NCBI GenBank assembly: GCA_025558095.1
Contig: JAIVFI010000031.1
Span: 508,810-572,809 of the forward strand
Length of the DNA: 64,000 bases
From: Hyaloraphidium curvatum SAG 235-1
Taxonomy: Eukaryota > Fungi > Monoblepharomycota
Direction: 5' to 3'
Shown piece after piece: positions 26,030-64,000 of the stretch. The position numbers were made by a program, and so were the translations under genes. Each line of letters starts with the position of its first letter. Position 1 is the stretch's first letter. Under the pieces are notes generated by a model that worked only from the letters and a program-made list of their open reading frames with translations, made no database searches and was not told the origin of the DNA.

Positions 26030-26811
26030 GGCTGCCGGAGGTGGGATGGGACGTCCCCGGTGAATGCGAGTTCGGAGGGAAGTGAGGGGCTGGTCCCTAG
26101 CTCGCCGACCATGTGCTTTCCACGCCGAAAGTTCGACCCCAATCACGCGGGCGCCGCCTCCGGACTCCCAAATAGAGCCTCCAGGCACGTTCCGCCGGCC
26201 GGATGGACACCTTCGGCGCCGCCCTGGCCCCGCCCCGGTCCCCGATTGCTCGTTTGTCTCCCCCGGCGCCTGAACTGGCCAGCGGCCTGGGCCCTACCAG
26301 CACAGCGATCGCGCTCCCCTGGAATCGCACGTATCTCCGTCCCCATCGCACACCGGGTCTCCGCACCAGCACATCGTGGGTATGCAAATCAGATCCAAGA
26401 TTCTCCGGTCACGGATGGCTCCCTGCGCCGGGGTTGAGTCCCCGCCTGGTTCGGAGACCGCCCCGCCGGCTTCCCGCCTCGCCGACCTGCCGCATTGCCG
26501 CTACTCTCTTCTGTTCCCCCGGCGACTCCTCCGGCACCCGACGACCCTCTCGGCCCTGCGCATCCGATGGCCGGCAAGGGGCCTGCGCCCCGCGGCAGAT
26601 AGACTTAGCGCGTTCGGGTCTTCCGGGACGCTCCGAAAGGCTGCGGCTGGCCGGCCGCCGGCCGGCCACCAAAAAGCCGCGCTCCGACGCTCCGACCGAT
26701 CGATCCGATGCGCGATGCGATGCCAAGTGCTCAGCATTTCCAGGGTATCCCTCACATGGGCCCGGATCCTCCGGCCCTCTAGCTCTCTCCCGCACCCATC
26801 CCGCCCCGCGC

Positions 26812-29552
26812 TCATCCCCACTGCAACGCCGCCACCCTCCTCCTCGCCCCCCGCGTCGTCGTCCTCCGCCTCGTCGTCTTCCTCCTCACCCGCCGCGTGG
26901 TAGCCCTGGCGTCCGCCGCCGGGGCACGCGTGGTCTTTTTTGCGGGGAGCACGGCGGCGCCCTTGCGCGTGGTGGCCTTGGACACGTCCCGCGCGGGGAC
27001 CGAGGTGGTCCAGCGGCCTTTGCGCGTGGTGCGCACGGTGGTCGTGCGGGTGGTGCGGGTGGTGCTGGTGGTTTTCGTCTGCGGATGGGAGGATGAACAT
27101 CGTTGAAGCCCGCACATGCATGGCAAAGCATACCTTCGTGTCCGTCGCGGTGCGGGTCTTCGTCGTCGTTTTCGTGCGGGTCTTGGTGTCCGTGGTCGTG
27201 CGCGTCTGCCGGACGGCAAGTTAGGTGAACGGCCGCCGCTGCGCGCCCCACGAAGAAGCCCACCTTTGTGTCCGTGGTCGTGCGCGTGTTGGAAGTCGTC
27301 GACGTCGTTTGCGTGCGAGTCTAAGGGGGGGGGGGGACGGGAATGGCACCGTCAGCTTGCGATCGGGCCCGTGGAACCAGACAACCAACCGCGGTCTCGG
27401 TCCTAGTGCGGCTCGCAGTCTCGGTCCTAGTGCGGCTCGCGGTCTCGGTTCTAGTGCGGCTCTGCGACGTCGTCGACGCCGTCTGCGTCGCCGATGCGGT
27501 CTCGGTGCTGCTCTGCGCCGGCGCTGTGGTGGTGGGCGCGGGCTGGGTCGTGCTCGCAGCCCGAACGGTCGTGCTCGCCGCCGGGACAGTCGTGCTCCTC
27601 GCAGGCGCCGTGGTGCTCTGCGCCGGCACCGTCGTGCTCTCGGCACCTCCGGCCGTCGACGTGGCCGGCGCCGCCTCGCCCACCATGCACCAGCCGAACA
27701 CGGTCCCCGTGTCCTGGCTCCACGAGTCCAGCACCGACAGTGTCCACCTCCCCGCGGCCGGGGCGCCCAGGAACCGCGACAGCGCGTCAAGCGGCTTGAA
27801 CACGGTGCCGGTGCAGCTCGTCCCCAGCGGTGCCGATGCCGCGTCGTCAAAGGCAAAGGTGACCCGGGTGGTGGCGTACGGGATGCACCCGGCGCTGCGG
27901 TACAGCACGGCGGCCAGGCCGTCCGAGGCGCGGGTGAGGGTGATGGTGAGGTCTGAGAGATACGTGTGCTGCATGTCGAGCTGGACCGAGAGGCGGGTGA
28001 GCGGGGAGGCGAGGTCCGCGTCGAGGGTGCTGTTGCGCGAGCCGAGGTCGACGATGGGGAAGGAGCCGCCGCAGCGGACGAAGCCGTTGGCGGGGATGGT
28101 GGTCGTCGTGCGCGAGGTCTGCATGCAGATGCGTTAGGAGGGGAGGCAAGGGGTCGCGGCGGGAGCGTACCGTGCTCCGGGTCGTCGAAGTCGTCCGGGT
28201 GCGCGAGGTCGTGGTCGTGGGGGTCTTTACCGTCCACGTCGTCACCGTCTGCGGGCTGGTCACTTCGGCACGCCACGCGGCCATGATCTGCGCGTGGTTG
28301 TTGAAGGTCCGCGCGACGTCGGCGCTGTTGGCGAGGGTCGAGTCCACGCCCATGGCGCGCCCGTTGTAGGTAACCTCGGGGTTGGAAAAGTACTGCAGCC
28401 GGGTGCACCCGTTGGGACAGTCGTACGCCATGATGGTCCTCCACAGGCCCGAGGGCTCCTGGTACCCGTACGAGTAGGGGTACGAGCCGCCGCCGCCGCC
28501 GCTGTTTGCGCGGTCGTGGTTGGCGCCCATGTTGTGGCCGATCTCGTGGCCGAAGGTGAAGTAGCCCGTGGCGCACGAGTAGTGCACGACGTTGAAGGCC
28601 CAGCCGGCAAAGTCCAGGCTCGGGGTGCCCATGAGCCAGCCTGCGGGAACGGAGAGGGTTAAGAGTTGGTGCATTTGCCAGCAGGTCCAGACGAACCGAT
28701 GCCGCAGTAGGCGCCGACCGAGGTCCACAGCGAGACGACGTCGGCGCCGTAGTTGTTGCGCAGGATGTGCACCTCGTCCATGTACCCGTCAGAGACGGCG
28801 GTGAGCCGGTCCAGGTCCTGACCCATGTCGTTGGCCACGTAATTTATCTCCTGCATGTACGCCAGCCGCATGACCATGTTGATGCGGGAGTTGGCGTAGG
28901 CCTGGTTGGTCTCGGCCACGGCCAGCCGGATCCGGGCCTCGATGTTGGCGGTGCCGCCGACCGCCATCCTGACCTGCGGGGTATACACGACGAGGATGTC
29001 TATGGTGGCGACCTGGCGCGCGGCCAGCCGGCGCTCGGTCCAGAAGCGCGCCGGGACTGGCGGCAAGTCCGCCTTCGGCACCTGAGGGTGCGCCTCGGCG
29101 GGGAAGGCGCGCACGTCGAGCTCGGCGACCGAGTGGATCGTGTCGTCCTGCGGCAGAACGGTGTACGACTTGTTCATCGTCCGCACGGTGCCCGCCACGC
29201 GGCCGTCCTGCTCGGCGACAAAGACCACCGATGACATCGGCTCCCCGGCGACGGTGCCGAAGTACGAGACGGCGCCGGTGCTCGGGTCGGTTTCGGAGCG
29301 GTCCTTCACCGCCACGACGCGGCGCCCGAACATGTCCAGCGCGATCTCGCGCGGGCCGGCCGCCCCGAGCAGCGCCGCGTCGACGGTTGCCGAGAAGCGC
29401 TGCGAGGTCCACGGATCGGGCCTGGCGCCGGGTGCGGGGTCGGGGGCGAAGGCCGGGACGCCAAAGAGCGCCTGCCCGGCTGCGGGCGCCGCCGCCGCCG
29501 CCGCGAGCGCGACCACGAAGGCCGCGACGGGGAAGAGTCTTTGTCGGGTCAT
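26812..29552 (-). CDS. Secreted M12B metalloprotease with P domain and Thr-rich tail (copy 2, inverted paralog of 21421..24017), multi-intron
   Basis: Near-identical N-terminal exon, HEIGHNMGANHD, RTIMAY, HTYLSDLTITL, GRWTLSVLD, and the same QWG* end. Confidence 0.9.
27391..27462 (-). repeat. 3 x 24-bp coding tandem repeat (SRTRTETA)
   Basis: GCGGTCTCGGTCCTAGTGCGGCTC repeated three times with one mismatch each in copies 2 and 3. Confidence 0.85.
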
Positions 29553-30135: not shown

Positions 30136-31133
30136 TCACGCCCTCGACTCCCACGCCTTCCTCCAGAAAGACCTGCCACGCTCGGAACCGCCCTCGGCGA
30201 CAAACTCCTCGAGATTCTCCGCCTCCTTGATCGCTTCCCTGGCCAGCTTCGCCTCCTCCTTCCCGTGCGGCACGTGCGCGTTGAGCAGCTGCAGTGCGCG
30301 GACGGACTTGGGCACACCGAGGGCGATCAGCTCCGCCGGATCCCAGAAGTCGACCTCGAGCTCCTCGAAGGAAGAAAGAAGGAGGGGGGGGGGGAGAGGG
30401 AAGGGGGGGGGGGGGGGGGGGGGGGGGGCAGCGTGCTGACCTCGCTTTCCACGGAGCGGATGAGGGAGGCGAGGCGGGGGTAGGCGCCGATGTCGAAGCA
30501 TCCCAGGCCGTCACTTGCGAAGTGGACCTCGGCGAGGCAGGGGAGGCCTTCGATCTGCCTGAGCAAGGGGGCGACCTCCCGGGCGGCCTGGTCGCTCCTG
30601 TCGTCCCCGTAAGACATTTCAAACTTGATCTTGAGGTATTCGAGCGAAGCAGGGGGGTGGAGTGCACCGCACACTCGATCCCGGCCCGAGTCGATCGCCA
30701 CGTCGAGCACCTTGAGGTTGCCGAGCGCCCCGATCGCGCGCACCGCCCGCTCAACGAGCCCGTCTTTGCCCGAAAAGAACTCGATGGAAAGAGTCTCGAG
30801 GTTCTTGCAGCCCCCCAGGATCCGGACTTCGGCCTCAATGAGCTCGTAACCGCCGCCAACGCCCCGCAGCTCCTTGGTCGCCTCGAACTTGCCCAGCTCC
30901 AGCGCGTCGGCGCTCATGGCTTCGACCTTTTCCTTGGCCACTCTAAAGACGGTGTCGCTGCTTCCGAGGTCGATACGACGGTAAAGCTTTGGCACGACGG
31001 CGACCAGGAGGGCGCGGCAGCTGGACCCGAGGCGGAGCAGCGAGCCGAGCCGCTTCCTGGCCGCGAGGTGGTCGATGACCAGGTCGAAAGCGGTGAGCAT
31101 CGAGAAGGACATGGGCTGCTGGTGTTCGGCCAT
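30136..31133 (-). CDS. F-box-like / LRR-like protein; probable intron 30364-30440 spanning a poly-C tract
   Basis: LVIDHL...LLRLGSSCRALL...PKLYRRIDL is F-box-like. LRR-like CKNLETLSI, NLKVLDV and SLEYLKI follow. A phase-0 join ESE|ELEVDFW is possible. Confidence 0.55.
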
Positions 31134-47995: not shown

Positions 47996-49083
47996 ATGCC
48001 GAACGCGCGCCGCGGTTCCGGCCCTGCGGCGCCGCTCGATGTGGTTCCCACGTCGCAGTCCGCGCTGCCGCTCTCCGACTACAGCCTGGGCACGCACGCC
48101 GGCTCCGGTCGGCTCAAGGGCAAGCGGGTGCTCATCGTGGGCGGCGGCCAGCGCAAGTCGGGGCCGGCGCCCGAGGTCAAGGACGCGGCCGGCAACGTGA
48201 TTCCGGTCATCGGCAACGGTCGGGCCGTCAGCCTGCTGGCCGCACGCGAGGGGGCGAGCGTGGCGGTCGCGGACAGGGACGCGTCGCTCGCAAAGGAGAC
48301 TGCGGATCTGTGCCAGCGCGAGCACGGCGCGTCAAATCAGTGGTAAGCTTCCTAGGTTCCCGTCAGAAGCTTCAGGCGCGCTTTGCTGACCTCGAACGCG
48401 TGCCAGGGGCTCGCGGCACGTGTCGATTCAGGTCGACGCGACGGATGAGCGCGAGGTGGAACGAATGCTCGCCGAAGCGGTGCAGAAGCTGGGCGGGAAG
48501 CTCGACGGCATCGTCTGCAACGTCGGCGCAGCGTGGGGCGGTGGCCTCGGCGGAACGAGCGTCGAGCTGTGGGAGCGAACCATGGCCACCAACCTCAAGT
48601 CGCATTTCCTCGTCTTGAAGCACTGCCGCAAGCATCTCAACTCCGACGCATCCATCATTCTGATCTCCTCGACTGCCGCCATCAGCCCCGGATCCGGGTA
48701 TCCCGCTTACCATGCCTCGAAGGCCGGCCTCAAAGGACTCCTGCTGCACGCTGCATCCGAGCTTTCCAACGCGGGGCTGAGGATCCGAGTCAATACGGTG
48801 TTGCCCGGCTTGATCGACACTCCCCTAGGGAGGGTCGGAAGCTCTGCTCGGCCGGAACGGGCTCGCACGGGCGTCCCCCTCGGACGCCAGGGCACCGGTT
48901 GGGACGTTGCGTGGGCCGTCTCGTGGCTCTTGTCGGGCGAGAGCAGCTACATCACCGGTTGGTCTGTCCGGTCGACTCCAACGCGCGCTCCTTACACTCC
49001 GGTGAAACTTCTCAGGCATCGAGCTCATCGTCGACGGCGGACTTTCGTCTATCGCACCTCGCGGAGTTCCCACGAAGCTCTGA
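47996..49083 (+). CDS. Short-chain dehydrogenase/reductase; introns 48343-48406 and 48958-49015
   Basis: RLKGKRVLIVGGG...IGNGRA, LDGIVCNVG, ISS, YHASK, IRVNTVLPG and SYITGIELIVDGG, ending TKL*. Confidence 0.9.
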
Positions 49084-49155
49084 TGAATGGTATCAGGAAG
49101 GCCTTCGGGCCTGTGGATCTGCATTTGTACATTCTTGACAAAAGTGATCTGAAAT

Positions 49156-50212
49156 TCATAGCTTCCCCCACTGCGCGATCGCCGTCGTCTTCCCCGTCCG
49201 GTGGTCGTAAACGTCCGTGCCTCGCGGAACAACCCTGATCGTTTGGCCTGCCATGGACTCGTCCTCAATGGCTCTGACCATCGCCTCGGTCACAGCGTCG
49301 ATAGTGACCATGTGCTTCTCCATCATCTTGGCGAAATCCGAGCCGAGGCCCCGAAGGAAGATGGGCGTCGGTGCGGCATTGGGGAGCACCACGTTCACGC
49401 GAACGGCAGGGGCCAGATCGCCCAGGCAACGCGTGAAATGGATCACGGCGGCCTTGCCAGAGGCGCTGAAGAGCATAGGGCTTCTTCAGCACCGGGCCGA
49501 GAAGAAAGCTCGAAAGCTACCCACTAAATCGGCTCCTTCTGCGGGATCAATCCGGCCATGCTGGCCGTGTTCACGACGACGAGCTTGGTGCCTCTCTTCT
49601 TTGCCTCGATGATGGCCAGTTCCGTCGCGTAAACCACGGCGTGGTAGTTGATCATGGTCATGCGGACAGCAGCGTCCGGTGAGACCGAGGTGTCCAGGTT
49701 GTCGACCGAGCGAGGCCAGCTGTCGTCGCCGATTCCGGCGTTCTGATTGAGATGAGAGCAACCGAGGAAGGTCAGCGCGTTAGGGATGAAATGGGAGACA
49801 GAACGGAAACAGAACCAACATTCACGAGAACCTGAGCCCGGAAACGTCCCAATATCGGGTACCGCAGGGAAGAGCGGTAAAGAAGAAAGCCGTCCATGAG
49901 CGATGTCGGTCGCTAGCGGCGGCGTGGAAGACCCACGTCGAGGCCGCCAAAGTCCCGAACAGTTCCGAGGACCATCTCCTTCACTTCATCCATTTTCGAG
50001 AGGTCCACCTTGCGGAAGTGGGCACTGCATCCCTGCTTCGACAGTTCCGCCGCGACGCCCTTCCCCAGCTCCTCCTGGACGTCCACGAGCACGAGCGACT
50101 TCGGACTCCGTTTCGCGAGCTTCCTCGCCAAATCGGCACCGAATCCTGAAGCTCCACCCGTCACGACTATGACCTTGCCGGCCACATCGTACTTCGATTT
50201 CAAGGAGGTCAT
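49156..50212 (-). CDS. Short-chain dehydrogenase/reductase (15-PGDH-like), multi-intron
   Basis: TGGASGFG, NAGI, NTASMAG, spliced YASGK catalytic motif and VRVNVVLP, ending GKL*. Confidence 0.88.
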
Positions 50213-51745: not shown

Positions 51746-53270
51746 ATGGAAGGCCACTCTCCGGGCCCGCCCCCCGGTGGTGGAGGCCCGTCTGGCGTAA
51801 AATACTTCGGTCCCGACGACGACAAGACCTGTTCGACTTGCGGCAACGCGGGGCATGCCTCCTACTACTCGCCCTATTGCCCTCAGACGCGCAGCATCAA
51901 GGCGCGTGGGCGGGACCACGGCGACGAAGAGACTGGGGTGTTCAAATATCGGGACTTTGTCTGGCGTTGCAACTTCCAGAAGTTTTGCAAGAGCACCCCG
52001 GTCGCACAGGTGCTTCGCAACATGATGGTCGCCACTTCCCAAGCCCGGTTCGAGGCGACCCGTTTTCTCCAGCTCTTCCTTTCGCGCACCGTCGGCTCTG
52101 ATCTGATTCGACACCCGCTGAAGGACTCTTGCCTTACCAACCTCTTCAAGGCGTTCTACGCCCCGTCGGCAGACAGCTACGCCACCCCCCGGCGCTACCT
52201 TGCAGCCTTCCACCCGTCTGCCCCTGCCATCTTTGCGGAGCATTTCCTACCTCGGCACACGGCGGCTTCTTGGCCCGGAGACTCCAACGCGTGCCGAAAC
52301 CTCTCCGTCATCATCGTGCACAACGTGACCAGCTCTTTGCGCAGGCAGTATGCTGCTGCGTGGAAGAGGCACGTGCTTTACAACATCGGTGCCTGGACCG
52401 TTGGATGGCTGAAGGACATGCTTGCTGTTGAGCTCCGGGGCGTGTGGGAAGAGATGCCCGCATGGCAACGCACCAAGCTTGCCTGGTGCATCTACACGTA
52501 CGTCACCCTCGGTGAGACCGACGGCATGGACATCTCCAAGCGGAACAAGGCTGCCAAGAAGAAAAAGCGCAAGGCATCCGAGATGGAGGATGACAACGAA
52601 TACGACAACGAGCCGGCAGAGCTTAAGCCGTTCGAGCTGCCAGAGCTTCGCACGCGCACCTGGCCCAACGGGTGCTTTGAAGCAGCCTTACTTTACATCG
52701 AAGAGGTGCGCCATCGTCTGGGGCCGACCGACCGGGGCAAGAAGACGTCTGGAGGTATCATTGTCGGCAAACCCAACGACGCTTATCTGTGGCTTTCCAA
52801 CCACCTAAACTGGCTACGCTTCTTGGCCGGTTTACGCAACAGGGAAGATGATGAGCATCGCAAGTTTGCGCTCTGCCCGCTTTTCAACTGGAAGCGGGCC
52901 TTCTTCACCGTGGACACAACCCTGCTCTTTTCCATCCTGGACCACGTTCGCGCGCCCGTACTGGCCGAGAAGGGCGCCCCGCGTTCCCTGCCTGAGACAG
53001 CGGGCGCATTCACAACAGACAAAGCGGCTCGGGATGCATGGAACGAGCACCTGTTCCGACTGAGCCCGAACATGCATCGCAAGGAGCGCGCCAAGGTGCC
53101 CAGCAACGGCAGACCCAAACCGGCGTCCCGTGTACGGAAATGGGACTACTCCTACTCCTTTGCAACCGACTGTGAAGGCGTTTCGGTGCTGTGCGCCAAA
53201 CGCTACAGGGCAAAGACGAAGAAGGAGCGGGAGGAAGCCGAAAAGCAGAGGGATGAGATGGACGAGGAGG
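51746..53270 (+). pseudogene. Fanzor1-like (TnpB-related RNA-guided nuclease) gene, N-terminal part only, interrupted by an LTR at 53271
   Basis: N-terminal CSTCGNAGH...CP knuckle. KFALCPL...FFTVDT..L and YSFATDCEGVSV match Fanzor1 WED motifs (FxxxP...xxIDT, TDGxxVSV). The ORF is cut before the RuvC-I DP motif. Confidence 0.75.
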
Positions 53271-53746
53271 TGCGACGGTCCGGGTCGGAACCGGGCCTGA
53301 AGCTCTAACCCGGCGCGCGAATCCCGCTCGGCTCTTCGGGTCGGATAGGCCCTGAATATGAATAAGCGAACAGCGCTGAAGATACTTGACTGTAGCCGGG
53401 GGAAAGAGGTTACGGGATGTCTCCCGGGGTGCGTCCCAAGGGCTCTCAGAACGAGGATCCGGCCGGGCGGGGTTCCGCACGGTGGTCGAACGACACGGAG
53501 AGCACGTAGAGTCAACTGGCGATCAAGATTGTACTGTTACATGTCCCGCTCTTTATATATCCCAGGAGGGTGGCTGTGCCGAGTCACTTGCGAGTCGCTC
53601 GCGAGTCGCTCGCGAGTGACTCGCGAGTCACTCGCGAGTCGATCGCGAGTCGATCACGAGTCGATCGCGAGGACCGACGCCTCCACGCCTCCGAACCGAA
53701 AATGAAAATACCCTTGTCCGAATGTCAGACGTCCTGTACCTTCGCA
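53271..53746 (-). repeat. LTR (476 bp), 3' LTR of the minus-strand copy; PPT at 53747-53757
   Basis: Reverse complement of 59665-60140, with termini TGCGA...TCGCA. Confidence 0.92.
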
Positions 53747-54165
53747 CGCCCCCACCCAAAAGAAGGCGCCGCCCTCGGCGCCACGAAATCGAAGATCCTC
53801 CGCGGAGTGACGTCATGCTTGCAGTAGAAGATGTTGAAGGCCGAGGTGGAGACAACAGATGTTGGAGAGTGTAGGGCCGAAGGGTGGCTTAGGCGTCCTC
53901 AAAGTCGACGTCGGCGTCCGCCTCGTCGTCGCTCGGCGGCGGGGCGCGGAGCCGGCGGGTAAAGCCGAGAGCGAAGGCGGCATGCACGGCTGAGCCGTCC
54001 GCGGCCGAGGGGGTGTAGACCGGGGGCATGGTCGACTTGTAGGGAGCGGCCGGGATGTCGTCGTACAGGGCGGCCAAGAGGCCGTCGTCCTGCGAGACGA
54101 TGGAGGAGGCGTCGCTGCTGGACACGCTCTCGGGGCGAGGAGCTGGAGGTTGCATATCCCCAGCC

Positions 54166-55449
54166 TCATCGTCGGAGGTGACGAGGTCCTCGTCCTTGAC
54201 GCGGCCGACCGGCGTGGAGGTGACCTCTTTTGAGTGGGCGGCGGTTGGCATTCTTCTCCAACTCCCAGCACTCGTCCTGAGCATGCCCATCCATGCCACA
54301 GAGATGGCAGTGGCGAGGCTGGAAGCGCTTCTGGTCGCGGTACTCCGAGGTGAAGGGCCGGCGATCCTGGCGCTCCTGCTGCTGGCGGGGCCGATCGATC
54401 GGAGGAGGCCTCGCGGGGGGGTTCGACCTGGTCTCCGCGGCCTGAACCTGATGGCGAGGCGACGGCAGCAGCTTGGTGATGAGCTCCTTGATCTCGACGA
54501 GGTCGCTGTTCGGCCCCGAAGGCGGCAACGGCTGGCTCCGACGAGACTGGAAGGGGACGAAACGGCGCGGAGGCCGGAACGCAGACTCCCCCGGCGGTCC
54601 ACCGGTGGGCCTGCGCTCTCCCTTAGGCTCCAGCAGCTTTGTGAGAGCCTGCGTATGAGCCAGCAGCACTTCCGTCGTCGCCTTGTCGGTCGCCTTGGAG
54701 GAGCCCGAAGACGAGTGCTGGCCGACCAGAGCCGGAATCTCCGAAATCGAGTTCTGGCCCAGGAAACGGATGTCGCGCGGCTGCGCAGGGCCCGATGCTT
54801 GCATGACGGTGCGCATCTTCTCGATGACCTTGGTGACGGAAGTGCGGTTGATGAGGTGATCCCCGAGGAGCTCCAGCGCCTTCCCGCGTAGCTCCGGGCG
54901 CAGTCCGTAGAGCAGGTTCTGGCCGTACACGCTGTCTTGCACTTCCCTGGTAGGAAGCTGATCGCCGCAGTGCGAGAGGAAACGCGTCTCGGCCAGGGAT
55001 ACGCGGGCAACGAAGGCGTCGAGGGTCTCATCGTTGGTCATCTGAATCGTGTTGTAGTGCCGGCGATAATGCATCGATGCGTCCAGGCGGGCCTCTTGCT
55101 GCTCGAGCGTCGCCGTTACGCGGTCAAGAGCGTGCTGCTCCAGGTTGCCGACATTGACGAGGGTGTTGAGCACCGGGTGGAGTGCGTCGAGGGCTGCGCG
55201 GATGGGCATGACCGCGGAGAAGGCGGCCTGCTCGACCTTGTGCAAGTGGGCCGTCGTCTGGGAGTGTCTGACGTCGAGGTCGGCCCGGAGGTCGTCCAGC
55301 CGGGTCGAGAGGGAGGCAAGCGCCGACCGATAGTCCGGGGGTACGACGCCAGGCAACGCAGCGACGGGCGCAGTCGCCGGCGGCGGCGCCGTGGCCACAT
55401 GCGGCCGGCGGGGCCGCAGGTTGTGGCCGGCAGTCGTGGGGGTCGCCAT
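54166..55449 (-). CDS. Chimeric ORF: ORF3 N-terminus fused in frame to the Gag C-terminal half (including the CCHC knuckle)
   Basis: 55449-55084 is ORF3 sequence. 55083-54230 is the reverse complement of gag 61064-61917. Confidence 0.8.
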   Translation of the reverse strand: MATPTTAGHNLRPRRPHVATAPPPATAPVAALPGVVPPDYRSALASLSTRLDDLRADLDVRHSQTTAHLHKVEQAAFSAVMPIRAALDALHPVLNTLVNVGNLEQHALDRVTATLEQQEARLDASMHYRRHYNTIQMTNDETLDAFVARVSLAETRFLSHCGDQLPTREVQDSVYGQNLLYGLRPELRGKALELLGDHLINRTSVTKVIEKMRTVMQASGPAQPRDIRFLGQNSISEIPALVGQHSSSGSSKATDKATTEVLLAHTQALTKLLEPKGERRPTGGPPGESAFRPPRRFVPFQSRRSQPLPPSGPNSDLVEIKELITKLLPSPRHQVQAAETRSNPPARPPPIDRPRQQQERQDRRPFTSEYRDQKRFQPRHCHLCGMDGHAQDECWELEKNANRRPLKRGHLHAGRPRQGRGPRHLRR

Positions 55450-55817
55450 GGGAGACGGTAGCGGCGAGGTCGACGTTGGGTGCGTAGTCCGCGGCCGCGG
55501 CCTCCTGTGGTCCGCCGCTTATATGGTGCGAAGCGCAGGCAACTCGCGAGTGCATCGCAAGTCGCTCGCGAGTGACTTGCGAGCGACTCGCGAGTGACTC
55601 GCGAGTCACTTGCGAGTCAACCGCGAGCCAACCGCGAGTCAACCGCGAGTCAACTGCGAGTCGAGTCGACCGCGAGTTCGCCCGCACACCGGGTCACCAG
55701 TCCCCGCCACGGGGGACGGGGCGCGAGCGAGGGCCGTACGCCATTGCGTCGACGAAAGCGCTCGCGGGGGATCGCGACGTAGGGTCCAGAAGAGCTGGGG
55801 GGATCTCCGCGCCTGTC
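55450..55817. promoter_or_regulatory. Putative bidirectional internal promoter with 11-bp palindromic repeat array (about 55541-55678)
   Basis: About 12 units built on ACTCGCGAGT / ACCGCGAGT lie between divergent ATGs at 55449 (-) and 55818 (+). CATATAAG is on the minus strand about 70 bp upstream of ORF3. Confidence 0.6.
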
Positions 55818-56803
55818 ATGAGTGCGGAGCTGCCGAACGTCGTCCCGCCGAGTTCGTGGTTCGAGGTTCGGTTGCCGACCTTCGACGTCCTGCTGTGCAC
55901 CAAGGTAAGAGCGTAGCGGCGTGGTCCTCGAACGGGAGCTCAGCGCCGCGCCAGGAGGACGACGTGGTCGACTGCTTCCTGCAACTGGTGCGTCTGGCCG
56001 CCATGCGCGGGATGTTGCCGCTGGCCGAAGAGGCTGGGAACGTCGTTGTCGAGGTCCGAGTGCTCCGTCGGCTCGTCGCCGAGCTGCGCGAGGCCGGCGG
56101 GACCGCCAAGCTGCGCGAGGCTGGCGGGGCCAGAGGCAACGACCCGATCGCGGCCGCGGCCGCAACCCGGACCTCCGGCGTCTTCCTGCCGGCGATGTCG
56201 TCGAAGGGTGCGCCTTCCGTCGGCGAGGGCGAGTCGGCGGCGGACTCGAGGGAGGAGCTCGAGGCGGCCGACGAAGTCCCCGTGCTGTCAGTCACGCTTC
56301 ATGCGCCCTCTTGGGAGCTGGACCACTTAGGCGACTTCGAGGCCGCCACTGAACAAGGGAGCGCCTTCCAGACGGCCCAAACGGCAACTTCAGGTAAAGA
56401 CGAGGGGCATGTGGTGCAGCGCGGGGAGGCCCGGGAGCAGATTGCGCAGGTGAACGGCTCGACGGGAGTACGCCCCACAAGCGCTGATCGTCACTGAATG
56501 TGCCAGATGAAGAAGTCGTCGCCGGTCTGGGGCTTGAAGGCGGAACGGGTGACGAAGAAGGTCCCTGATGCCGTGCCGGCAGGCTCCTTCCTCCGATGGA
56601 AGATTGCCGGAACGTACGCCGGCGAACTGTACCGGAGCCCCACCAAGGGCGAAGTGGCGGTATGCTCGTTCCCGTGGTGCCATCTGGTAAAGCACAAGGC
56701 TAAGGGCCTCCTGGGCAATCTGAACACGCATTTTCAGTCCGGGTATCACAAGTTGGCGTTCGAGGGGGTCGAGGATAGGCTCGAGGTAGTACGTCGGGTT
56801 TGA
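55818..56803 (+). CDS. Antisense accessory gene of the retrotransposon; 3 exons (55818-55904, 55955-56449, 56507-56803), 292 aa, C-terminal C2H2/BED-like zinc finger
   Basis: Phase-0 introns GTAAGA..CCAG (50 bp) and GTGAAC..GCTGAT..CCAG (57 bp) link three ORF-track segments. The finger reads CSFPWC-x15-H-x5-H, with NLNTH. Confidence 0.65.
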
Positions 56804-56873
56804 GTCAGTGAAAAGCCGGGGATCGGAGCACAGAGATGGTAGTGCTGTGACCGGATAGACGTCGTTGGTGTTA

Positions 56874-58514
56874 CTAGCGACGCCGAGTCCGCATGCGCCT
56901 GGGGAGACCCGTCGGGAGCTGGAGACCAACGCGATCGGCATAGGCGCGGACGATCCCTATGGCGCCGTGCAACATGTCCAGAGGGAGCTTGGTCGTGCGA
57001 GCGAAGCCCCGCCACTTGACCTCGAACTTGAGTCCGTGACCCTGGCCCTCGTGGCCGACGATGTCCTCGACGGTGTACTCCTGCTCGTTCCCAAGCGCGT
57101 TCTCGACCTCGATTTCCTCTTCGAACTCGTTCACCGGTTCCGAGAGATCGAGCTCTTCACCGGCGGCGAGCTCCGGGGCGCGTGCGTTCCACGAGCGCGC
57201 GTTGAAGGTGGCCGACTCCCAAGGCTTGTAGCGCGCCAGCCGGTCCACATGCACAGTGGTGACGTGGTCGGTCTCGTAGACGTGTCTACACTTCCAGGTG
57301 AGCTCGGTGTGGCCTGACTCCTCGATGCGGTAGGGCCCAAGATAACGAGAGACGAACTTGCCCGGCTCGCCCTTGCGCGGTCGTTCTGGTCCCCAGATGA
57401 GCACGAGGTCGCCGGGGCGGAAGGTAATCGGAAGCCGGGTAGCGTTGGCCTTGGCGTTCCGAGTCTCCGCCGCTGCGGCCATCTTCTCGGCCACCAGGTC
57501 GTAGGCCGCACGAAGCTGCGCCACGAGCTCCACGACGTAGGTCCGCCGGCGCTCATCCTCTGTCTTCTTGTCCTCCTCGTCGCTGGCCCGCAGGTGCACT
57601 GGCTCGCGAATCTCGGTCTCGTCGTAAAGTAGGTCGAGCGGAATACGAGCATCCCGACCATGCATCAGAAAGAACGGAGTTTCGCCGGTCGTCGCGTGGA
57701 TGGAGGTCCGGAAGGCAAAGATGACCCCCACGATGTCCTCGTCCCATGTCTGGTAGTTCTTGGAGACCGCTGCGCTCAGGGCGTCGATGATCCACCGGTT
57801 CGGGCGCTCCGCGAGGGAAGCCCTGGGATGCCCAACCGTGACCAGGCCCCGGTTGATGCCGAGTAGCTTGAGCAGGTACTCCATGTAATGGTTGTCCAGG
57901 TTCGAGGCGTTGTCGTGGTGAATCCGCTTCGGAAGACCGTGCTCGAGAATCCATCGCGTATAGAGCAGCTTCGCCGTCGTCGGCCCAGAGAGGTCCGGAG
58001 TCGGATACGCCGCGACCCATTTAGTGAACGGATCGTAGACGACGAGAAGGTACTTGTTGCCGCGGGGCGTGGCCGGATTGATCTCGCCGATGTAGTCGAT
58101 GTAGATGTCCTCGTTGGGACCTGTGAGAGGAACCGATTTCAGTAAGCCCTGGTTCGATACCGAAGGCATCTTCCGGGTCATGCATGTAAGGCAGGCTCGC
58201 GTCCAGCGGCGAACGTCGTGCGCCATGCCGACCCAATATACGCGGCGCCGCAGATTGCTGTACGCCCGGTGTCGCCCGACGTGCCCGCTCAGGGGATCGT
58301 CGTGCGCACGTTGCAGGTAGGCCTCCCTCAGCTCGTGCGGTATCACGAGCTGGGTGACCGGGATACGACGGGTACCAGTCGCGAGTACATCGCGCCGGCA
58401 GAGCACGCCGTCCGTAGCGAGGAAGTACTGCTCGCCGTACTTCTTGCAGAATTTGGCCAGATTCACGTTGGGAGGGAGCTCCCCGTCTCGCACGAAGCGG
58501 ATCAGCGCGCTGGT
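56874..58514 (-). CDS. Pol 3' fragment: integrase (HHCC, DDE, GPY/F) plus chromodomain, 5'-truncated at an inversion junction
   Basis: AHDDPLSGHVG...CLTC, IDYIG, HDNAS, AERPNR, TGETPFFLMHGR, YLGPYRI and YTVEDIVGH...FEVKWRGF. Confidence 0.93.
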   Translation of the reverse strand, partial: TSALIRFVRDGELPPNVNLAKFCKKYGEQYFLATDGVLCRRDVLATGTRRIPVTQLVIPHELREAYLQRAHDDPLSGHVGRHRAYSNLRRRVYWVGMAHDVRRWTRACLTCMTRKMPSVSNQGLLKSVPLTGPNEDIYIDYIGEINPATPRGNKYLLVVYDPFTKWVAAYPTPDLSGPTTAKLLYTRWILEHGLPKRIHHDNASNLDNHYMEYLLKLLGINRGLVTVGHPRASLAERPNRWIIDALSAAVSKNYQTWDEDIVGVIFAFRTSIHATTGETPFFLMHGRDARIPLDLLYDETEIREPVHLRASDEEDKKTEDERRRTYVVELVAQLRAAYDLVAEKMAAAAETRNAKANATRLPITFRPGDLVLIWGPERPRKGEPGKFVSRYLGPYRIEESGHTELTWKCRHVYETDHVTTVHVDRLARYKPWESATFNARSWNARAPELAAGEELDLSEPVNEFEEEIEVENALGNEQEYTVEDIVGHEGQGHGLKFEVKWRGFARTTKLPLDMLHGAIGIVRAYADRVGLQLPTGLPRRMRTRRR

Positions 58515-59522
58515 CTCGACGCACTCCACCCGGTGCTCAACACCCTCGTCAATGTCGGCAACCTGGAGCAGCACGCTCTTGACCGCGTAACGGCGACGCT
58601 CGAGCAGCAAGAGGCCCGCCTGGACGCCCAGATCCGCCAGCAGCGTGACGAGCTCCAGGTGGTCCTCAGTGGCCGCCACCGCGAACTTGAGTTCGCCGTC
58701 ACCGCCTTGCGCCGGACCGACGACGCTCGTCTCGGTGCCATCGAGACGCAGCTCGACCGGCTTGCGTTGGTGCTCGAGGCTCAACGTCAGAACTTCAACG
58801 GCATTCTCCTGGTGGACGAAGCTACCATCGAGGAGTTGAGGGAGTTCGGCTCTTCCCTCGCCGGGCTGGTTGCTCAGACCGGGACCAACCTCGAAACCAC
58901 CATCGAGACCGTCGTCGAGACCAATCTCGCCCGTCACAACAATGGCCCCATGGCGGAGTTTGCGGCCGACCTCAAGAGCGTCCTGGCGGCCCATCTGCAG
59001 CGATTTGGGTCGGAGCAGCACAAGCAGCTCATGCTTTCAGCTCAAGACCACACCACGCTCCTCACGGCCGGCCTGAACGCGCAGCGCGAGCACTTCACCA
59101 AGACCGCCGACGAGCAACGGGCCCTCCTGCGTCGCTTCCTCGGCAATCAAGTGGCTCCCCTGGCGGGGCAAACGACGCCCGCCGTGGTCACCTCCACGCC
59201 GGTCGGCCGCGTCAAGGACGAGGACCTCGTCACCTCCGACGATGAGGCTGGGGATATGCAACCTCCAGCTCCTCGCCCCGAGAGCGTGTCCAGCAGCGAC
59301 GCCTCCTCCATCGTCTCGCAGGACGACGGCCTCTTGGCCGCCCTGTACGACGACATCCCGGCCGCTCCCTACAAGTCGACCATGCCCCCGGTCTACACCC
59401 CCTCGGCCGCGGACGGCTCAGCCGTGCATGCCGCCTTCGCTCTCGGCTTTACCCGCCGGCTCCGCGCCCCGCCGCCGAGCGACGACGAGGCGGACGCCGA
59501 CGTCGACTTTGAGGACGCCTAA
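58515..59522 (+). CDS. ORF3 of the retrotransposon (5'-truncated copy): coiled-coil protein with acidic tail, in env-like position
   Basis: Overlaps the N-terminal copy by 113 bp (55079-55191). Heptad-rich, no evident TM segment, and stops about 130 bp before the PPT. Confidence 0.75.
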   Translation, partial: LDALHPVLNTLVNVGNLEQHALDRVTATLEQQEARLDAQIRQQRDELQVVLSGRHRELEFAVTALRRTDDARLGAIETQLDRLALVLEAQRQNFNGILLVDEATIEELREFGSSLAGLVAQTGTNLETTIETVVETNLARHNNGPMAEFAADLKSVLAAHLQRFGSEQHKQLMLSAQDHTTLLTAGLNAQREHFTKTADEQRALLRRFLGNQVAPLAGQTTPAVVTSTPVGRVKDEDLVTSDDEAGDMQPPAPRPESVSSSDASSIVSQDDGLLAALYDDIPAAPYKSTMPPVYTPSAADGSAVHAAFALGFTRRLRAPPPSDDEADADVDFEDA

Positions 59523-59664
59523 GCCACCCTTCGGCCCTACACTCTCCAACATCTGTTGTCTCCACCTCGGCCTTCAACATCTTCTACTGCAAGCATGACG
59601 TCACTCCGCGGAGGATCTTCGATTTCGTGGCGCCGAGGGCGGCGCCTTCTTTTGGGTGGGGGCG

Positions 59665-60140
59665 TGCGAAGGTACAGGACGTCTGACATTCGGACAAGGG
59701 TATTTTCATTTTCGGTTCGGAGGCGTGGAGGCGTCGGTCCTCGCGATCGACTCGTGATCGACTCGCGATCGACTCGCGAGTGACTCGCGAGTCACTCGCG
59801 AGCGACTCGCGAGCGACTCGCAAGTGACTCGGCACAGCCACCCTCCTGGGATATATAAAGAGCGGGACATGTAACAGTACAATCTTGATCGCCAGTTGAC
59901 TCTACGTGCTCTCCGTGTCGTTCGACCACCGTGCGGAACCCCGCCCGGCCGGATCCTCGTTCTGAGAGCCCTTGGGACGCACCCCGGGAGACATCCCGTA
60001 ACCTCTTTCCCCCGGCTACAGTCAAGTATCTTCAGCGCTGTTCGCTTATTCATATTCAGGGCCTATCCGACCCGAAGAGCCGAGCGGGATTCGCGCGCCG
60101 GGTTAGAGCTTCAGGCCCGGTTCCGACCCGGACCGTCGCA
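59665..60140 (+). repeat. LTR (476 bp) with PPT upstream (59654-59664) and PBS downstream
   Basis: TGCGAAGGT...ACCGTCGCA inverted termini, repeat array at 59741-59831, and TATATAAA at 59852. Confidence 0.92.
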
Positions 60141-60141
60141 C

Positions 60142-60152
60142 TGGTCCGACCT
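60142..60152 (+). promoter_or_regulatory. Primer binding site, probably tRNA-Tyr
   Basis: TGGTCCGACCT lies 1 nt after the LTR CA. It is complementary to the AGGTCGGACCA 3' end that I recall for eukaryotic (plant-type) tRNA-Tyr. Confidence 0.7.
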
Positions 60153-60307
60153 CCGTGATCCTGCTCTCGGGTCTTCGACACCTCGTTCGACTTCAGTTTC
60201 GACTTCGATAATCCAAAAACAACTTCGCCTGGCACCGGCGCTTGTCGACTGCCACTCTTTTCTGTCAACCGTATTCCGTCAACCAAGTTCATTCCCCTTC
60301 GCCAAAC

Positions 60308-61963
60308 ATGGACCCCGTTCAAGAAGCCGCCCCTCAGCAGGAGGTTCAGCAGCCTCAGGAAGCTAACGATTTGCAGAACAACCCGCAGGCCCAGGCGATT
60401 ATCCAAGCTGCGCAGGCCGCGATCCAGCAAGTCGGCGCCGCCGCCAACGACGTCGCCCAACTCGCCGCCCAGCAAGCCGCCCAGCAAGCCGTCGCCGATC
60501 AGCTTGCCGCTCAGCTCGTGGCGCAACAGACCGCTCAGCAGTTGCCAGCTGCCCAAGTTCAACAGCAAGCCGCCGCCGAGCAGCTTGCAGCGCAGCAGCT
60601 CCAGCAGCTCGCCGCACAGCAGCAGGGTCAGCGGAGCGAGCAAGCCCCGGCTGTCAACGCTGCCGCCGCTGGTCTCCAGCCGCAGCAGTTCGTCGACGCC
60701 GTACGGGCCATCGTTGGCGCTCAGCCGCCGAACGATGGAAGCACCGGCCTCCCCCAGGCGGATCGCCAGGGCGGAGCCGCCAAGCTCCCGGCTCAGCTGC
60801 TGCCTGCTTCTGTTCAGCCCTTCGATCCCGCTACGCAGGACCCGGAAGACTTCTTCCGCGACCTCACTACGGTTCTCACGGCGTTCGGCTCCATCAACAA
60901 CCTCGTCAAGGTCTTCCCGGTCTTCCTTGGGCCTCTGCCGCGCGCAATGTGGCACAACATCACGCCGCAGAACCGCCCTCCGGACTATCCCGCGACGGCC
61001 ACCTATCCTCCGGTGACCCAGAACGATGTGCTTGCCTGGCTACGCTACCACTTCGAGCCCCGCGACGCATCGATGCATTATCGCCGGCACTACAACACGA
61101 TTCAGATGACCAACGATGAGACCCTCGACGCCTTCGTTGCCCGCGTATCCCTGGCCGAGACGCGTTTCCTCTCGCACTGCGGCGATCAGCTTCCTACCAG
61201 GGAAGTGCAAGACAGCGTGTACGGCCAGAACCTGCTCTACGGACTGCGCCCGGAGCTACGCGGGAAGGCGCTGGAGCTCCTCGGGGATCACCTCATCAAC
61301 CGCACTTCCGTCACCAAGGTCATCGAGAAGATGCGCACCGTCATGCAAGCATCGGGCCCTGCGCAGCCGCGCGACATCCGTTTCCTGGGCCAGAACTCGA
61401 TTTCGGAGATTCCGGCTCTGGTCGGCCAGCACTCGTCTTCGGGCTCCTCCAAGGCGACCGACAAGGCGACGACGGAAGTGCTGCTGGCTCATACGCAGGC
61501 TCTCACAAAGCTGCTGGAGCCTAAGGGAGAGCGCAGGCCCACCGGTGGACCGCCGGGGGAGTCTGCGTTCCGGCCTCCGCGCCGTTTCGTCCCCTTCCAG
61601 TCTCGTCGGAGCCAGCCGTTGCCGCCTTCGGGGCCGAACAGCGACCTCGTCGAGATCAAGGAGCTCATCACCAAGCTGCTGCCGTCGCCTCGCCATCAGG
61701 TTCAGGCCGCGGAGACCAGGTCGAACCCCCCCGCGAGGCCTCCTCCGATCGATCGGCCCCGCCAGCAGCAGGAGCGCCAGGATCGCCGGCCCTTCACCTC
61801 GGAGTACCGCGACCAGAAGCGCTTCCAGCCTCGCCACTGCCATCTCTGTGGCATGGATGGGCATGCTCAGGACGAGTGCTGGGAGTTGGAGAAGAATGCC
61901 AACCGCCGCCCACTCAACTGGAAGTCTCGCCTCGGCAACACCCCTTCGATGCCAAAAAACTAG
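60308..61963 (+). CDS. gag: Gag with Q/A-rich N-terminus, capsid-like region and CCHC zinc knuckle
   Basis: Follows the PBS. Contains IQMTNDETLDAFVARV (MHR-like) and CHLCGMDGHAQDEC. Confidence 0.9.
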   Translation: MDPVQEAAPQQEVQQPQEANDLQNNPQAQAIIQAAQAAIQQVGAAANDVAQLAAQQAAQQAVADQLAAQLVAQQTAQQLPAAQVQQQAAAEQLAAQQLQQLAAQQQGQRSEQAPAVNAAAAGLQPQQFVDAVRAIVGAQPPNDGSTGLPQADRQGGAAKLPAQLLPASVQPFDPATQDPEDFFRDLTTVLTAFGSINNLVKVFPVFLGPLPRAMWHNITPQNRPPDYPATATYPPVTQNDVLAWLRYHFEPRDASMHYRRHYNTIQMTNDETLDAFVARVSLAETRFLSHCGDQLPTREVQDSVYGQNLLYGLRPELRGKALELLGDHLINRTSVTKVIEKMRTVMQASGPAQPRDIRFLGQNSISEIPALVGQHSSSGSSKATDKATTEVLLAHTQALTKLLEPKGERRPTGGPPGESAFRPPRRFVPFQSRRSQPLPPSGPNSDLVEIKELITKLLPSPRHQVQAAETRSNPPARPPPIDRPRQQQERQDRRPFTSEYRDQKRFQPRHCHLCGMDGHAQDECWELEKNANRRPLNWKSRLGNTPSMPKN

Positions 61964-62001
61964 CTTTGCCCTCAGTGCCGCACGGCCATAGGGGGGCAGA
62001 G
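61954..62001 (+). other. -1 programmed ribosomal frameshift signal
   Basis: A_AAA_AAC in the gag frame directly before TAG, followed by a CTTTGCCCTC/GGGGGCAGAG stem. The -1 frame is the open pol frame. Confidence 0.8.
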
Positions 62002-64000
62002 ATCCAAGCTCTTGAACCACATGTGGAACCTCTTCCTGGAACTTCCCCGCTGCCGGACGGCACGGACCCTTCATCTCCTGGCGGATCGCCGGAGTTGTCG
62101 GATTCCGCGACCGATGAACCGACGGCGGAGGACCACGTTCATCATTGGCCCTTCGGGGGCACGGAGTACATCCTCTTCCTCGAGGCGGAGGCAGCTCGAC
62201 AGGCCGCCGTTCGTCAGCAGCGGGAGGCGCTCATGCCGATCGACGAGACCCTGGCCCCGCCGCCGGCAGCGGATTCGGCGTCGCCCGGCTCGGTCGAGGT
62301 CGTGGGAAACGGTGAACCGGCGGCACAGGATGCGGACGCGGGATCAGCGGATGCACCTATGCACGAGGGCCCGACCGTCCGCGCCGTTCCCGGACCTTTC
62401 GAAAGGCCCCCTCCTCCTTCCGCCTACGCACGACCACCGCTGCCTGGCCCTCGGCCTCGCCCGCGGCCACCTGCTCCGGTCGCCCCTCCGCCGGATCGCT
62501 GGACGTGGACTTCGCAAGTGCAGTTCCACTATCAGGCGGCACGCGTTTCGGCATGGGTCAACGGCGTGAATACCCCCGCGGCCCTCGTCGACTCCGGTGC
62601 CTCAGTGGTGGCGGTTCGGTCGTCCTTCTTCTGCCGGATCCACCCGTCGCCACCGATCAAACCATGGACACTCGGCACCCTCAGCACGGCCGCGGCCGGC
62701 GGAACCATGTGGGTCCGCGGAGTTGCTAAGATGGACATCCTGGTCGGGAATCAACACTGCGTCATGGACGTCGCCATCATGGACGGTCTCATGGACGACG
62801 TGATCCTCGGCACCCCTTGGCTCTCCGCCCTACGCGTTCAGATGGACTGGGAGACGCCGGTCCTCTATTTCAAGGACGATCCGGAGGGGGTCGTCGTGCC
62901 AATGCACATTGTTGCGCGACCGCTCTTCGGATCACACCTGGTCGCCCCGCTCCATTCAACCACCTCCATCACGGTCTACCCCAACGAGGACGTCTCGATC
63001 ACCGCTGAGCTGGCCCCGACGACTCCCTTGGCGACCGTCGTGGAGATGGACTTGACAGGGGTCATCGAGACGCCGAACACTTCGCCGTTCGATCGCCTCT
63101 TCATCATCCCGTCGGCGACGCCCGACAGAGACGGTCGGCTGCCGATTCTCATCCGCAACTACGGGACGACACCGGTCACGATCGGCCCGGGCACCCACCT
63201 CGGCCGCTTCCGCGTGCGGATTCCTGGATTTCTCGCTCCGGAACCGCCCACGTATCTGGCTCCCGCGCAGATCTCGATGCTGGAGCCCGAGCTGCCCCAC
63301 ACCGAACCGGCCGAATCCACGCTCACGGTCGAGGAGACCATCGATCTGTTCGCGGTGCCCTCGCCGGGATCGATTGGACCACCTCAGCCTCCCGGCGTGG
63401 AGCCTCCTCCGGTCGAGGCTATCGAGCTCAAGATGGACCAAACGATCCTGAGCGAGGGGGACAAACCTCGTTTCCATAAGCTCTGCGACCGCTACCGGGA
63501 CGTGTTTGGTCCTTGGATCGGCAAGCTGCGCAACCATCGCTTCCGGATCGACACGGGCGACCTCAAGCCGATCCACCAGATGCCGTACCGGACCCCGTTC
63601 CGGCTTCGCGGGGAAATGGACAAGATCATCGACGACCTGCTCGTGCAGGGCGTAGTCGTCCCCTCGCGAAGCCCCTGGGCCACGCCCTGCATCATGGTGC
63701 CAAAAGGGCACGGCTCGGGCGAATGGCGCCTGGTGATCGATTACCGGAAGCTCAACGCCGCCACCAAGCGCGACGTCTACCCGATGAAGAACCCAAGCGA
63801 CACTCTCGCTCTCCTCAGCGCGGCCAAGGTGTGGAGCGTTTGCGACATCCGCTCCGGCTTTTGGCACGTGGAGGTGGCCGACGAGGACAAGGAAAAGACG
63901 GCCTTCACGACGCACCGCGGTCTCTACCAGTGGGAGCGGATGGCCATGGGCTTTACCAACGCTCCTGCAACCTTTGCTCGGATCATGGACGAGCTCCTCG
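61960..64000 (+). CDS. pol: Pol (partial, runs off window): aspartic protease and reverse transcriptase
   Basis: Not in the ORF track because it has no stop in the window. Frame 1 reads ALVDSGA, VILGTPWL, SPWATP, WRLVIDYRKLN, DIRSGFW, KTAF and MAMGFTNAPATF. Confidence 0.95.

What the first reader, a model, noticed from the sequence alone, without database searches (positions are those of the whole stretch)
55818..56803. Intron-containing antisense zinc-finger gene inside a retroelement
Three ORF-track pieces join through two host-sized phase-0 GT-AG introns into a 292-aa protein with an acidic middle and a terminal CxxxxC...H...H finger. Introns antisense to the genomic RNA would survive reverse transcription, which would explain their presence. 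The gene could be a captured host gene or a dedicated regulator or anti-silencing factor.
Basis: partly seen in the sequence, partly recalled or inferred. Interest (0 to 1): 0.8.

Follow-up and report, generated by a model that had tools for sequence, protein, structure and literature searches.

The report
Spliced antisense zinc-finger gene in retrotransposon
A fungal jumping gene carries, backwards between its polymerase gene and a second extra gene, an intact gene with two predicted introns that likely encodes a zinc-finger protein, which would regulate the element by binding repeat arrays seen in this window only at the element's own promoter-like sites.

Summary
The gene model holds: exons 55818-55904, 55955-56449, 56507-56803, two phase-0 GT-AG introns (50, 57 nt), 292 aa. 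A codon parser not trained on it returns exactly this model (0 of 200 shuffles reach its score). One homologue exists, a Hyaloraphidium curvatum protein (E 4e-11 on exon 3); it keeps all four Cys/His residues and aligns across intron 2. The window is very likely from that fungus. The gene lies antisense, 70 nt past the pol stop of a young, rearranged Ty3/Gypsy element, head-to-head with a second extra gene (421-aa ORF X). Between them is an 11-bp quasi-palindrome array found otherwise only in the LTR. The finger (C-x4-C-x16-H-x5-H) is BED-like but fails the strict BED spacing; fold prediction was uninformative. Best reading: an element-borne regulator that binds these arrays (about 0.4). Splicing, expression, presence in other copies and the homologue's context are untested. 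Antisense extra genes in this slot are known (Grande gene23, Retand, Boty brtn), and this scan noted spliced ones in other genomes. New here: the protein family, the host lineage, and the divergent two-gene cassette around an LTR-like array.

The parts
55818..55904 (+). ZnF gene exon 1 (29 aa, ATG at 55818)
   Evidence: weakest exon (codon score 1.8; weak homologue support)
55905..55954 (+). intron 1, 50 nt, phase 0, GT-AG (predicted)
55955..56449 (+). ZnF gene exon 2 (165 aa): amphipathic helix shared with the homologue (about 56045-56095), then acidic low-complexity middle
   Evidence: 17 of 1000 shuffles reach its score against the homologue
56450..56506 (+). intron 2, 57 nt, phase 0, GT-AG with a CTGAA branch-like motif (predicted)
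   Evidence: best of 19 alternatives; 7 of 15 identities in an ungapped window across the junction
56507..56803 (+). ZnF gene exon 3 (98 aa + stop): conserved domain of about 80 aa
   Evidence: 45% identity to KAI9034073.1, E 4.2e-11
56663..56749 (+). C-x4-C-x16-H-x5-H finger with Asn four residues before the first His
   Evidence: all four ligands and the Asn invariant in the homologue
55542..55662 (.). internal array of 11 copies of an 11-bp quasi-palindrome between the two divergent start codons (368 nt apart)
55518..55525 (-). TATA-like box for ORF X, about 17 nt from the array, same geometry as in the LTR
   Evidence: function inferred
55079..55449 (-). ORF X, 5' part (123 codons), element-sense second extra gene; fused here to a gag fragment
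58506..59522 (+). ORF X, middle and 3' part; overlaps the 5' part by 122 nt
   Evidence: both parts match the 421-aa annotated protein P0004 except at the rearrangement junction
56874..58505 (-). 3' end of pol: integrase zinc domain, core, chromodomain-like tail; stop 70 nt from the ZnF stop
   Evidence: (PF17921 3e-18, PF00665 4e-7, PF00385 0.005 below cut-off)
59650..59664 (+). polypurine tract
59665..60141 (+). LTR, 477 bp, TG...CA with terminal inverted repeat; 8.4-copy array 59740-59831 and TATA at 59852
60142..60160 (+). PBS-like sequence starting TGG directly after the LTR
   Evidence: cognate tRNA not identified (no tRNA in window)
60308..61963 (+). gag-like ORF (551 aa) with a Cys/His knuckle, ending on an A-AAA-AAC slippery site (61954-61960)
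   Evidence: no Pfam hit above cut-off
61964..64000 (+). pol 5' part in the -1 frame: protease and RT, running off the window
   Evidence: best PDB hit Ty3 RT, 2e-25
53270..54225 (-). inverted 100% copy of ORF X 3' end, PPT and LTR (LTR 53270-53746); left end of the insertion
54230..55083 (-). inverted 100% copy of gag middle (61064-61917) replacing the middle of ORF X

Best explanation
An intact three-exon gene model sits antisense between pol and a second extra gene of a Ty3/Gypsy retrotransposon; it is likely an accessory gene of the element, predicted to be spliced and to encode a zinc-finger protein that would bind the element's own 11-bp repeat arrays and so likely switch on its promoters. 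Shown: the exon model, its coding signal, one homologue with the same layout, the position in the element, and the arrays at the LTR and at the internal divergent site. Inferred steps: (1) the internal array is a two-way promoter driving ORF X in the element's sense and this gene antisense (0.7); (2) the introns persist because the genomic RNA carries them as the reverse complement, which the spliceosome ignores (0.9 if the gene travels with the element); (3) the C-terminal domain binds zinc (0.85) and reads DNA with its helix as BED fingers do (0.55); (4) the target is the quasi-palindromic array, with the conserved N-terminal helix as a dimer contact and the acidic middle as an activation or chromatin-opening surface (0.4), giving a feedback loop on LTR and internal promoter. 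Repression through the same sites is not excluded.
For: Gene reality: parser, 0 of 200 shuffles; homologue 31% over 239 aa, E 2e-23 pairwise. Inside the element: continuous sequence from integrase through the gene to ORF X, and ORF X runs on to PPT and LTR; 70 nt to the pol stop. Species-restricted family as expected of a mobile accessory gene. BED-like: atlas rows at 0.90-0.92 carry zf-BED (12% of members) or zf-C2H2_12 (84%); the homologue's nearest named clusters are also BED/C2H2_12 at 0.83 or less; Asn at His-4 matches Hermes N67/H71, whose helix contacts a quasi-palindrome of repeats (PMC10368747 passages). All 19 matches to the 11-mer lie in the three arrays; 0 of 100 shuffles reach 19. 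Plant precedent for own promoter and nuclear protein (PMC7264820).
Against: No RNA data. The protein is not among annotated proteins although ORF X is annotated in four places (0 of 10 exact look-ups), so either annotation missed it or other copies lack it. The homologue's genomic context is unknown. Strict BED spacing Cx2C is not met; no Pfam hit at E<=1 or 10; atlas recognition 2277 is below the 2300 mark, so those scores are weak, and the three best atlas rows have no family. The Hermes base-contacting Arg position holds Thr here and Gln in the homologue. No TATA was found for the antisense direction downstream of the array. Nothing links protein to array except proximity; tandem arrays in this region are common in Retand elements with unknown role.
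Confidence: 0.4

Rival explanations
1. Captured host gene riding as a passenger: the antisense strand of an intron-containing host gene (the KAI9034073.1 locus or a relative) was copied into the element, which keeps introns, and it has no role in the element.
For: Host-like intron sizes and density; a same-species homologue annotated once on a 1.6-Mb contig; antisense capture is the one RNA route that keeps introns (inference).
Against: Only 31% identity to the homologue yet an intact frame with invariant Cys/His residues; no orthologue in any other species; tight packing against pol and a shared array with ORF X.
Confidence: 0.2
2. Element accessory gene whose finger binds RNA rather than DNA (U1/matrin-like), protecting or exporting genomic RNA or damping RNAi against the double-stranded RNA that antisense transcription would create.
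For: H-x5-H spacing in both proteins, recalled as typical of matrin/U1/JAZ fingers; the mRNA is wholly antisense to the genomic RNA; weak fold rows include Pur/Whirly-type folds at Z 3.5 or less (not significant).
Against: Atlas neighbours are BED/C2H2_12, not matrin families; no Pfam hit; 16-18 residues between second Cys and first His.
Confidence: 0.15
3. Element accessory gene acting by another route: a brake on the element through protein contacts (as HBZ does for HTLV-1), or a cofactor for nuclear import or integration-site choice together with ORF X or the chromodomain.
For: Spliced antisense repressors are known in deltaretroviruses (PMC10186651 passages); import and other accessory roles are proposed for plant aORF-3R; divergent pairing with ORF X suggests co-expression.
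Against: No direct evidence; the acidic-plus-finger layout fits a DNA-binding factor at least as well.
Confidence: 0.18
4. One-off insertion or assembly product in this rearranged copy, or a chance exon chain.
For: The copy is heavily rearranged with 100% identical inverted blocks; only one copy of the gene was seen; it is unannotated.
Against: None of the three mapped junctions touches the gene or its flanks; coding signal and homologue exclude chance.
Confidence: 0.07

Closest known systems
aORF-3R class: maize Grande gene23, rice RIRE2, Silene Retand, bean PvRetro13 (PMC7264820, main text read; PMC11963269 passages and Discussion)
   Same: Antisense ORF between pol and 3' LTR of a Ty3/Gypsy element; internal promoter (Grande); tandem-repeat arrays in the same region (Retand); suspected nucleic-acid-binding regulator of unknown function.
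   Different: No TRP28 or SMC domain; fungal host; two predicted spliceosomal introns (the word intron does not occur in PMC11963269); paired head-to-head with a sense extra gene; the internal array shares its unit with the LTR array.
brtn of Boty/BcGypsy1 elements of Botrytis cinerea and Sclerotinia (Zhao et al. 2011, not held; seen only through passages of PMC8365987, PMC4227169, PMC7264820)
   Same: Fungal Ty3/Gypsy element with a chromodomain and an additional antisense gene that genome annotation missed.
   Different: No sequence link found; different fungal lineage; a C2H2/BED-like finger. That brtn itself is spliced is my recall and was not verified.
BED zinc finger of hAT transposases (Hermes, Tgf2; PMC10368747, PMC4890040 passages)
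   Same: CCHH ligands, His pair at the end of a predicted helix, Asn at His-4; a mobile element's protein reading short repeats of its own DNA (shown for Hermes, inferred here).
   Different: Cx4C instead of Cx2C; no transposase; no Pfam zf-BED hit; sits at the C-terminus of a stand-alone protein.
HTLV-1 HBZ (PMC10186651 passages)
   Same: Spliced antisense gene of a retroelement encoding a nuclear regulator of the element's LTR.
   Different: HBZ is a bZIP repressor driven from the 3' LTR; here an internal site and an unrelated finger protein.

Membership tests
Ty3/Gypsy LTR retrotransposon (chromodomain-bearing) | LTR with TG...CA ends, PBS after it, PPT before it | tested here: met
Ty3/Gypsy LTR retrotransposon (chromodomain-bearing) | protease-RT first, integrase last in pol; RT closest to Ty3 | tested here: met
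   RNase H and the RT-integrase join lie outside the window
Ty3/Gypsy LTR retrotransposon (chromodomain-bearing) | chromodomain at integrase C-terminus | tested here: inconclusive
   PF00385 E 0.005, 17.1 bits below cut-off 25.1; HP1 E 0.48
aORF-3R (antisense additional ORF) | antisense, between pol and 3' LTR | tested here: met
aORF-3R (antisense additional ORF) | present in most copies of the family | not testable with these tools
   no genome held; one copy seen
aORF-3R (antisense additional ORF) | transcribed from its own promoter; nuclear protein | not testable with these tools
   no RNA or localisation data
BED zinc finger | Cx2C cysteine pair | tested here: not met
   Cx4C in both proteins; definition from PMC4890040
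BED zinc finger | Hx3-5(H/C) pair after a long spacer | tested here: met
   x16/x18 then Hx5H
BED zinc finger | base-reading Asn four residues before the first His (Hermes N67) | tested here: met
BED zinc finger | Pfam zf-BED match | tested here: not met
   no family listed for exon 3, two sub-stretches or the homologue
BED zinc finger | beta-beta-alpha zinc fold | tested here: inconclusive
   model pLDDT 44.8, strands then a helix ending on the His region; fold searches uninformative
classical C2H2 finger | 12 residues between second Cys and first His (recalled) | tested here: not met
   16 and 18; KLF5 match only E 0.42
U1/matrin-type finger | Hx5H pair (recalled) and a Pfam match | tested here: inconclusive
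   spacing met; no Pfam match
Retand TRP28 antisense protein | PF04195 domain | tested here: not met
six-cysteine antisense proteins of filamentous-fungal chromoviruses (earlier scan notes) | six-Cys cluster plus coiled coil | tested here: not met
   exon 3 has two Cys and two His
env-like sense aORF (for ORF X) | transmembrane segment | tested here: not met
   highest 19-residue hydropathy 1.2

The most novel reading that the evidence does not exclude
A four-gene Ty3/Gypsy retrotransposon of an early-diverging fungus encodes its own sequence-specific transcription factor: a spliced, antisense, BED-like finger protein that binds palindromic arrays at both the LTR and an internal two-way promoter, closing a feedback loop like that of complex retroviruses, with sister families carrying diverged finger/array pairs.
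Probability: 0.3. Interest if true: 0.8.

Novelty: new variant of a known kind. Interest (0 to 1): 0.52.

Why it matters
The function of antisense extra genes and of the tandem arrays in the pol-to-3'LTR region is stated as unknown in PMC7264820 and PMC11963269. This element offers a small candidate DNA-binding domain and a short candidate site that recurs at both promoter-like positions, so one binding assay and one reporter assay could test whether an LTR retrotransposon encodes its own transcription factor. It also shows the intron strand rule inside one element and a gene that annotation did not capture.

Tried and rejected
No whole genome held, so copy number, other copies and the far end of the insertion were not examined. 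No read evidence was obtained. Pfam, PHROGs and PDB sequence searches gave nothing significant for the gene. Word-based protein searches: 0 of 36 candidates for exon 3 among longer proteins; only the known homologue among 3302 candidates. The second representative hit (P0002, bacterial Ig-repeat protein, E 4e-5) covers residues 13-52 only, not the finger, and was rejected. No related loci in metagenome contigs (0 of 168 and 0 of 172 pattern matches) or viral contigs (0 of 49). AlphaFold2 with two-sequence alignments failed: pLDDT 31.2 for the homologue, 44.8 for exon 3; Foldseek had no match at E<=0.001 and VIA-align no Z>=5 among 48,161 chains, with no zinc-finger entry recognisable by title in the 50 rows shown; with such a model this says nothing. 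Exact look-ups: 0 of 10 ORF variants and 0 of 3 window ORFs. The four-row alignment was misaligned and not used. The sigma-70 scan does not apply to this host. No complex prediction was run. Literature: searches listed no paper on this element or on Hyaloraphidium retrotransposons (20 of 55 rows seen, 15 of 22); one search found nothing on matrin spacing; REM1 of Chlamydomonas (recalled as having a reverse PHD ORF) was not confirmed; PMC9409477 and PMC9289625 passages added nothing. Supplements were not opened; those of PMC11963269 could hold spliced antisense ORFs.

Full report
Observation. The three exons and two phase-0 GT-AG introns are in the sequence and give 292 aa. GC at third codon positions is 0.90, 0.82 and 0.78 in the three exons, like the element's other genes (0.78-0.87). 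A simple parser trained on gag, pol, integrase, ORF X and seven Pfam-supported host cores returned the same start, stop and introns unprompted. Its score of 30.6 was reached by 0 of 200 shuffles and 0 of 13 antisense controls. The host cores came from a Pfam scan of 66 pieces, 64 of them picked from 299 by codon bias. Predicted host introns have a median of 59 nt, 21 of 31 within 46-64 nt, so 50 and 57 nt are host-sized.

Homologue. An index-free HMMER search of 1.84 billion representatives with exon 3 gave two hits. One is a bacterial repeat protein matching outside the finger and was rejected. The other, KAI9034073.1 of Hyaloraphidium curvatum (274 aa), aligns to the model over 239 aa at 31%. 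It shares an N-terminal amphipathic helix, the end of exon 2, and the whole exon-3 domain with both Cys, both His and the Asn before the first His. The modelled intron 2 scores best of 19 open-frame alternatives; intron 1 gets little help from the homologue. Exon 2 alone is only modestly significant (17 of 1000 shuffles). A second search found no further member.

Host and element. A search with ORF X returned an H. curvatum gene model that spans one of this window's own rearrangement junctions, so the window very likely comes from that species. Its cluster holds a 421-aa protein that matches the two window parts of ORF X and has three accessions, KAI9025608, 610 and 612, on one 817-kb contig. 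I infer a young family with a tandem array. The element is Ty3/Gypsy: 477-bp LTR with TG...CA ends, PPT, PBS-like site, gag, a -1 slippery site, protease and Ty3-like RT, and integrase with a weak chromodomain. The native order is inferred as LTR-gag-pol-[antisense ZnF]-array-ORF X-PPT-LTR. In the window it is scrambled into inverted blocks of 956 and 854 bp at 100% identity and 122 bp at 98%, joined by short microhomologies and one 4-nt filler. This looks like template switching in a tandem array, but mis-assembly is not excluded. None of the junctions touches the ZnF gene.

The cassette. The ZnF stop lies 70 nt from the pol stop; its ATG lies 368 nt from the ATG of ORF X, pointing the other way. 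Between them are 11 copies of an 11-bp unit that equals its reverse complement at 10 of 11 positions. The same unit forms 8.4 copies just upstream of the LTR TATA box, and a TATA-like box sits at a similar distance on the ORF X side of the internal array. All 19 window matches to the 11-mer at up to one mismatch fall in the three arrays; shuffles give 2.9 on average. ORF X has no transmembrane segment and only sub-threshold helical Pfam matches; its role is unknown.

Introns. The element's sense frames are open without introns over about 6.6 kb, where about 12.7 would be expected at the predicted host density (the parser did place optional introns in three of these four regions, partly because it must start at an ATG and end at a stop). 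The antisense gene needs two in 0.88 kb. This is what retrotransposition predicts: only introns on the genomic RNA's own strand are removed. It permits the introns but does not say whether they came with a captured gene or were gained later.

The finger. Spacing is C-x4-C-x16-H-x5-H (x18 in the homologue). BED is defined as Cx2CxnHx3-5(H/C) (PMC4890040 passages), so it is not a BED member by the strict test, and it has no Pfam hit. It resembles BED: atlas neighbours of both proteins are BED or C2H2_12 clusters (leads only, recognition 2277), and the Asn at His-4 corresponds to Hermes N67, which contacts a quasi-palindrome of subterminal repeats (PMC10368747 passages). Structure prediction was too poor to decide.

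Mechanism. I commit, at about 0.4, to an element-encoded DNA-binding regulator of the arrays, probably activating given the acidic middle. The gene's reality is about 0.9, splicing as modelled about 0.8, family-wide presence about 0.75; the array link rests on co-location and analogy only. Against it: the protein is absent from annotated proteins while ORF X is annotated four times, and the homologue's context is unknown. Rivals are passenger capture (0.2), another accessory role (0.18), RNA binding (0.15) and one-off or artefact (0.07).

Comparison. Antisense ORFs in this slot are an established class with unknown function, including fungal brtn (PMC7264820, parts 1-2 of 3 read; PMC11963269 passages and Discussion; PMC8365987 and PMC4227169 passages). 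Spliced antisense regulators are known from HTLV (PMC10186651 passages). Earlier notes of this scan describe spliced antisense genes in this slot in other genomes, and one raises a link to LTR repeats without showing it (unchecked, not counted as support); none matched this DNA. Five paper searches listed nothing on this element. Verdict: a real gene, a new variant of a known kind, distinctive for its protein family, its host lineage and the divergent cassette around an LTR-like array. Interest 0.52.

Noticed in passing
window 51749-53269 (+): A 507-codon ORF with an N-terminal Cys/His knuckle is cut by the element's inverted LTR end just after a motif I recall as Fanzor/TnpB-like; no Pfam, PHROGs or PDB support. 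The label is recall only.
   Followed up: partly
window 53270-64000: The composite insertion begins with an inverted LTR 3' end, so it starts with TG; if the far end is a normal 3' LTR, both ends would be U5 ends. Three internal junctions show microhomology or a 4-nt filler. Real rearrangement or mis-assembly is open.
   Followed up: partly
window 55079-55449 (-) and 58506-59522 (+): ORF X, a 421-aa intronless sense extra gene without a transmembrane segment or homologues outside this species; three identical annotated copies at alternate accessions on another contig suggest a tandem array of the element.
   Followed up: partly
window 58506-59522: The public gene model DFJ74DRAFT_747442 fuses antisense integrase codons to ORF X across a rearrangement junction and is probably an annotation artefact.
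   Followed up: partly
window 60142-60160: PBS-like sequence is not complementary to the LTR (no 7-mer match); I recall it as resembling a tRNA-Tyr 3' end, untested.
   Followed up: partly
window 21421-24161 (+) and 26605-29552 (-): Convergent pair of paralogous M12 metallopeptidase plus P-domain genes, 75-86% alike in DNA, with repetitive C-terminal parts.
   Followed up: no
window 47996-50212: Two convergent short-chain dehydrogenase genes directly left of the mobile-element cluster.
   Followed up: no
window 30384-30428: A 45-nt G-rich run, possibly a sequencing artefact.
   Followed up: no
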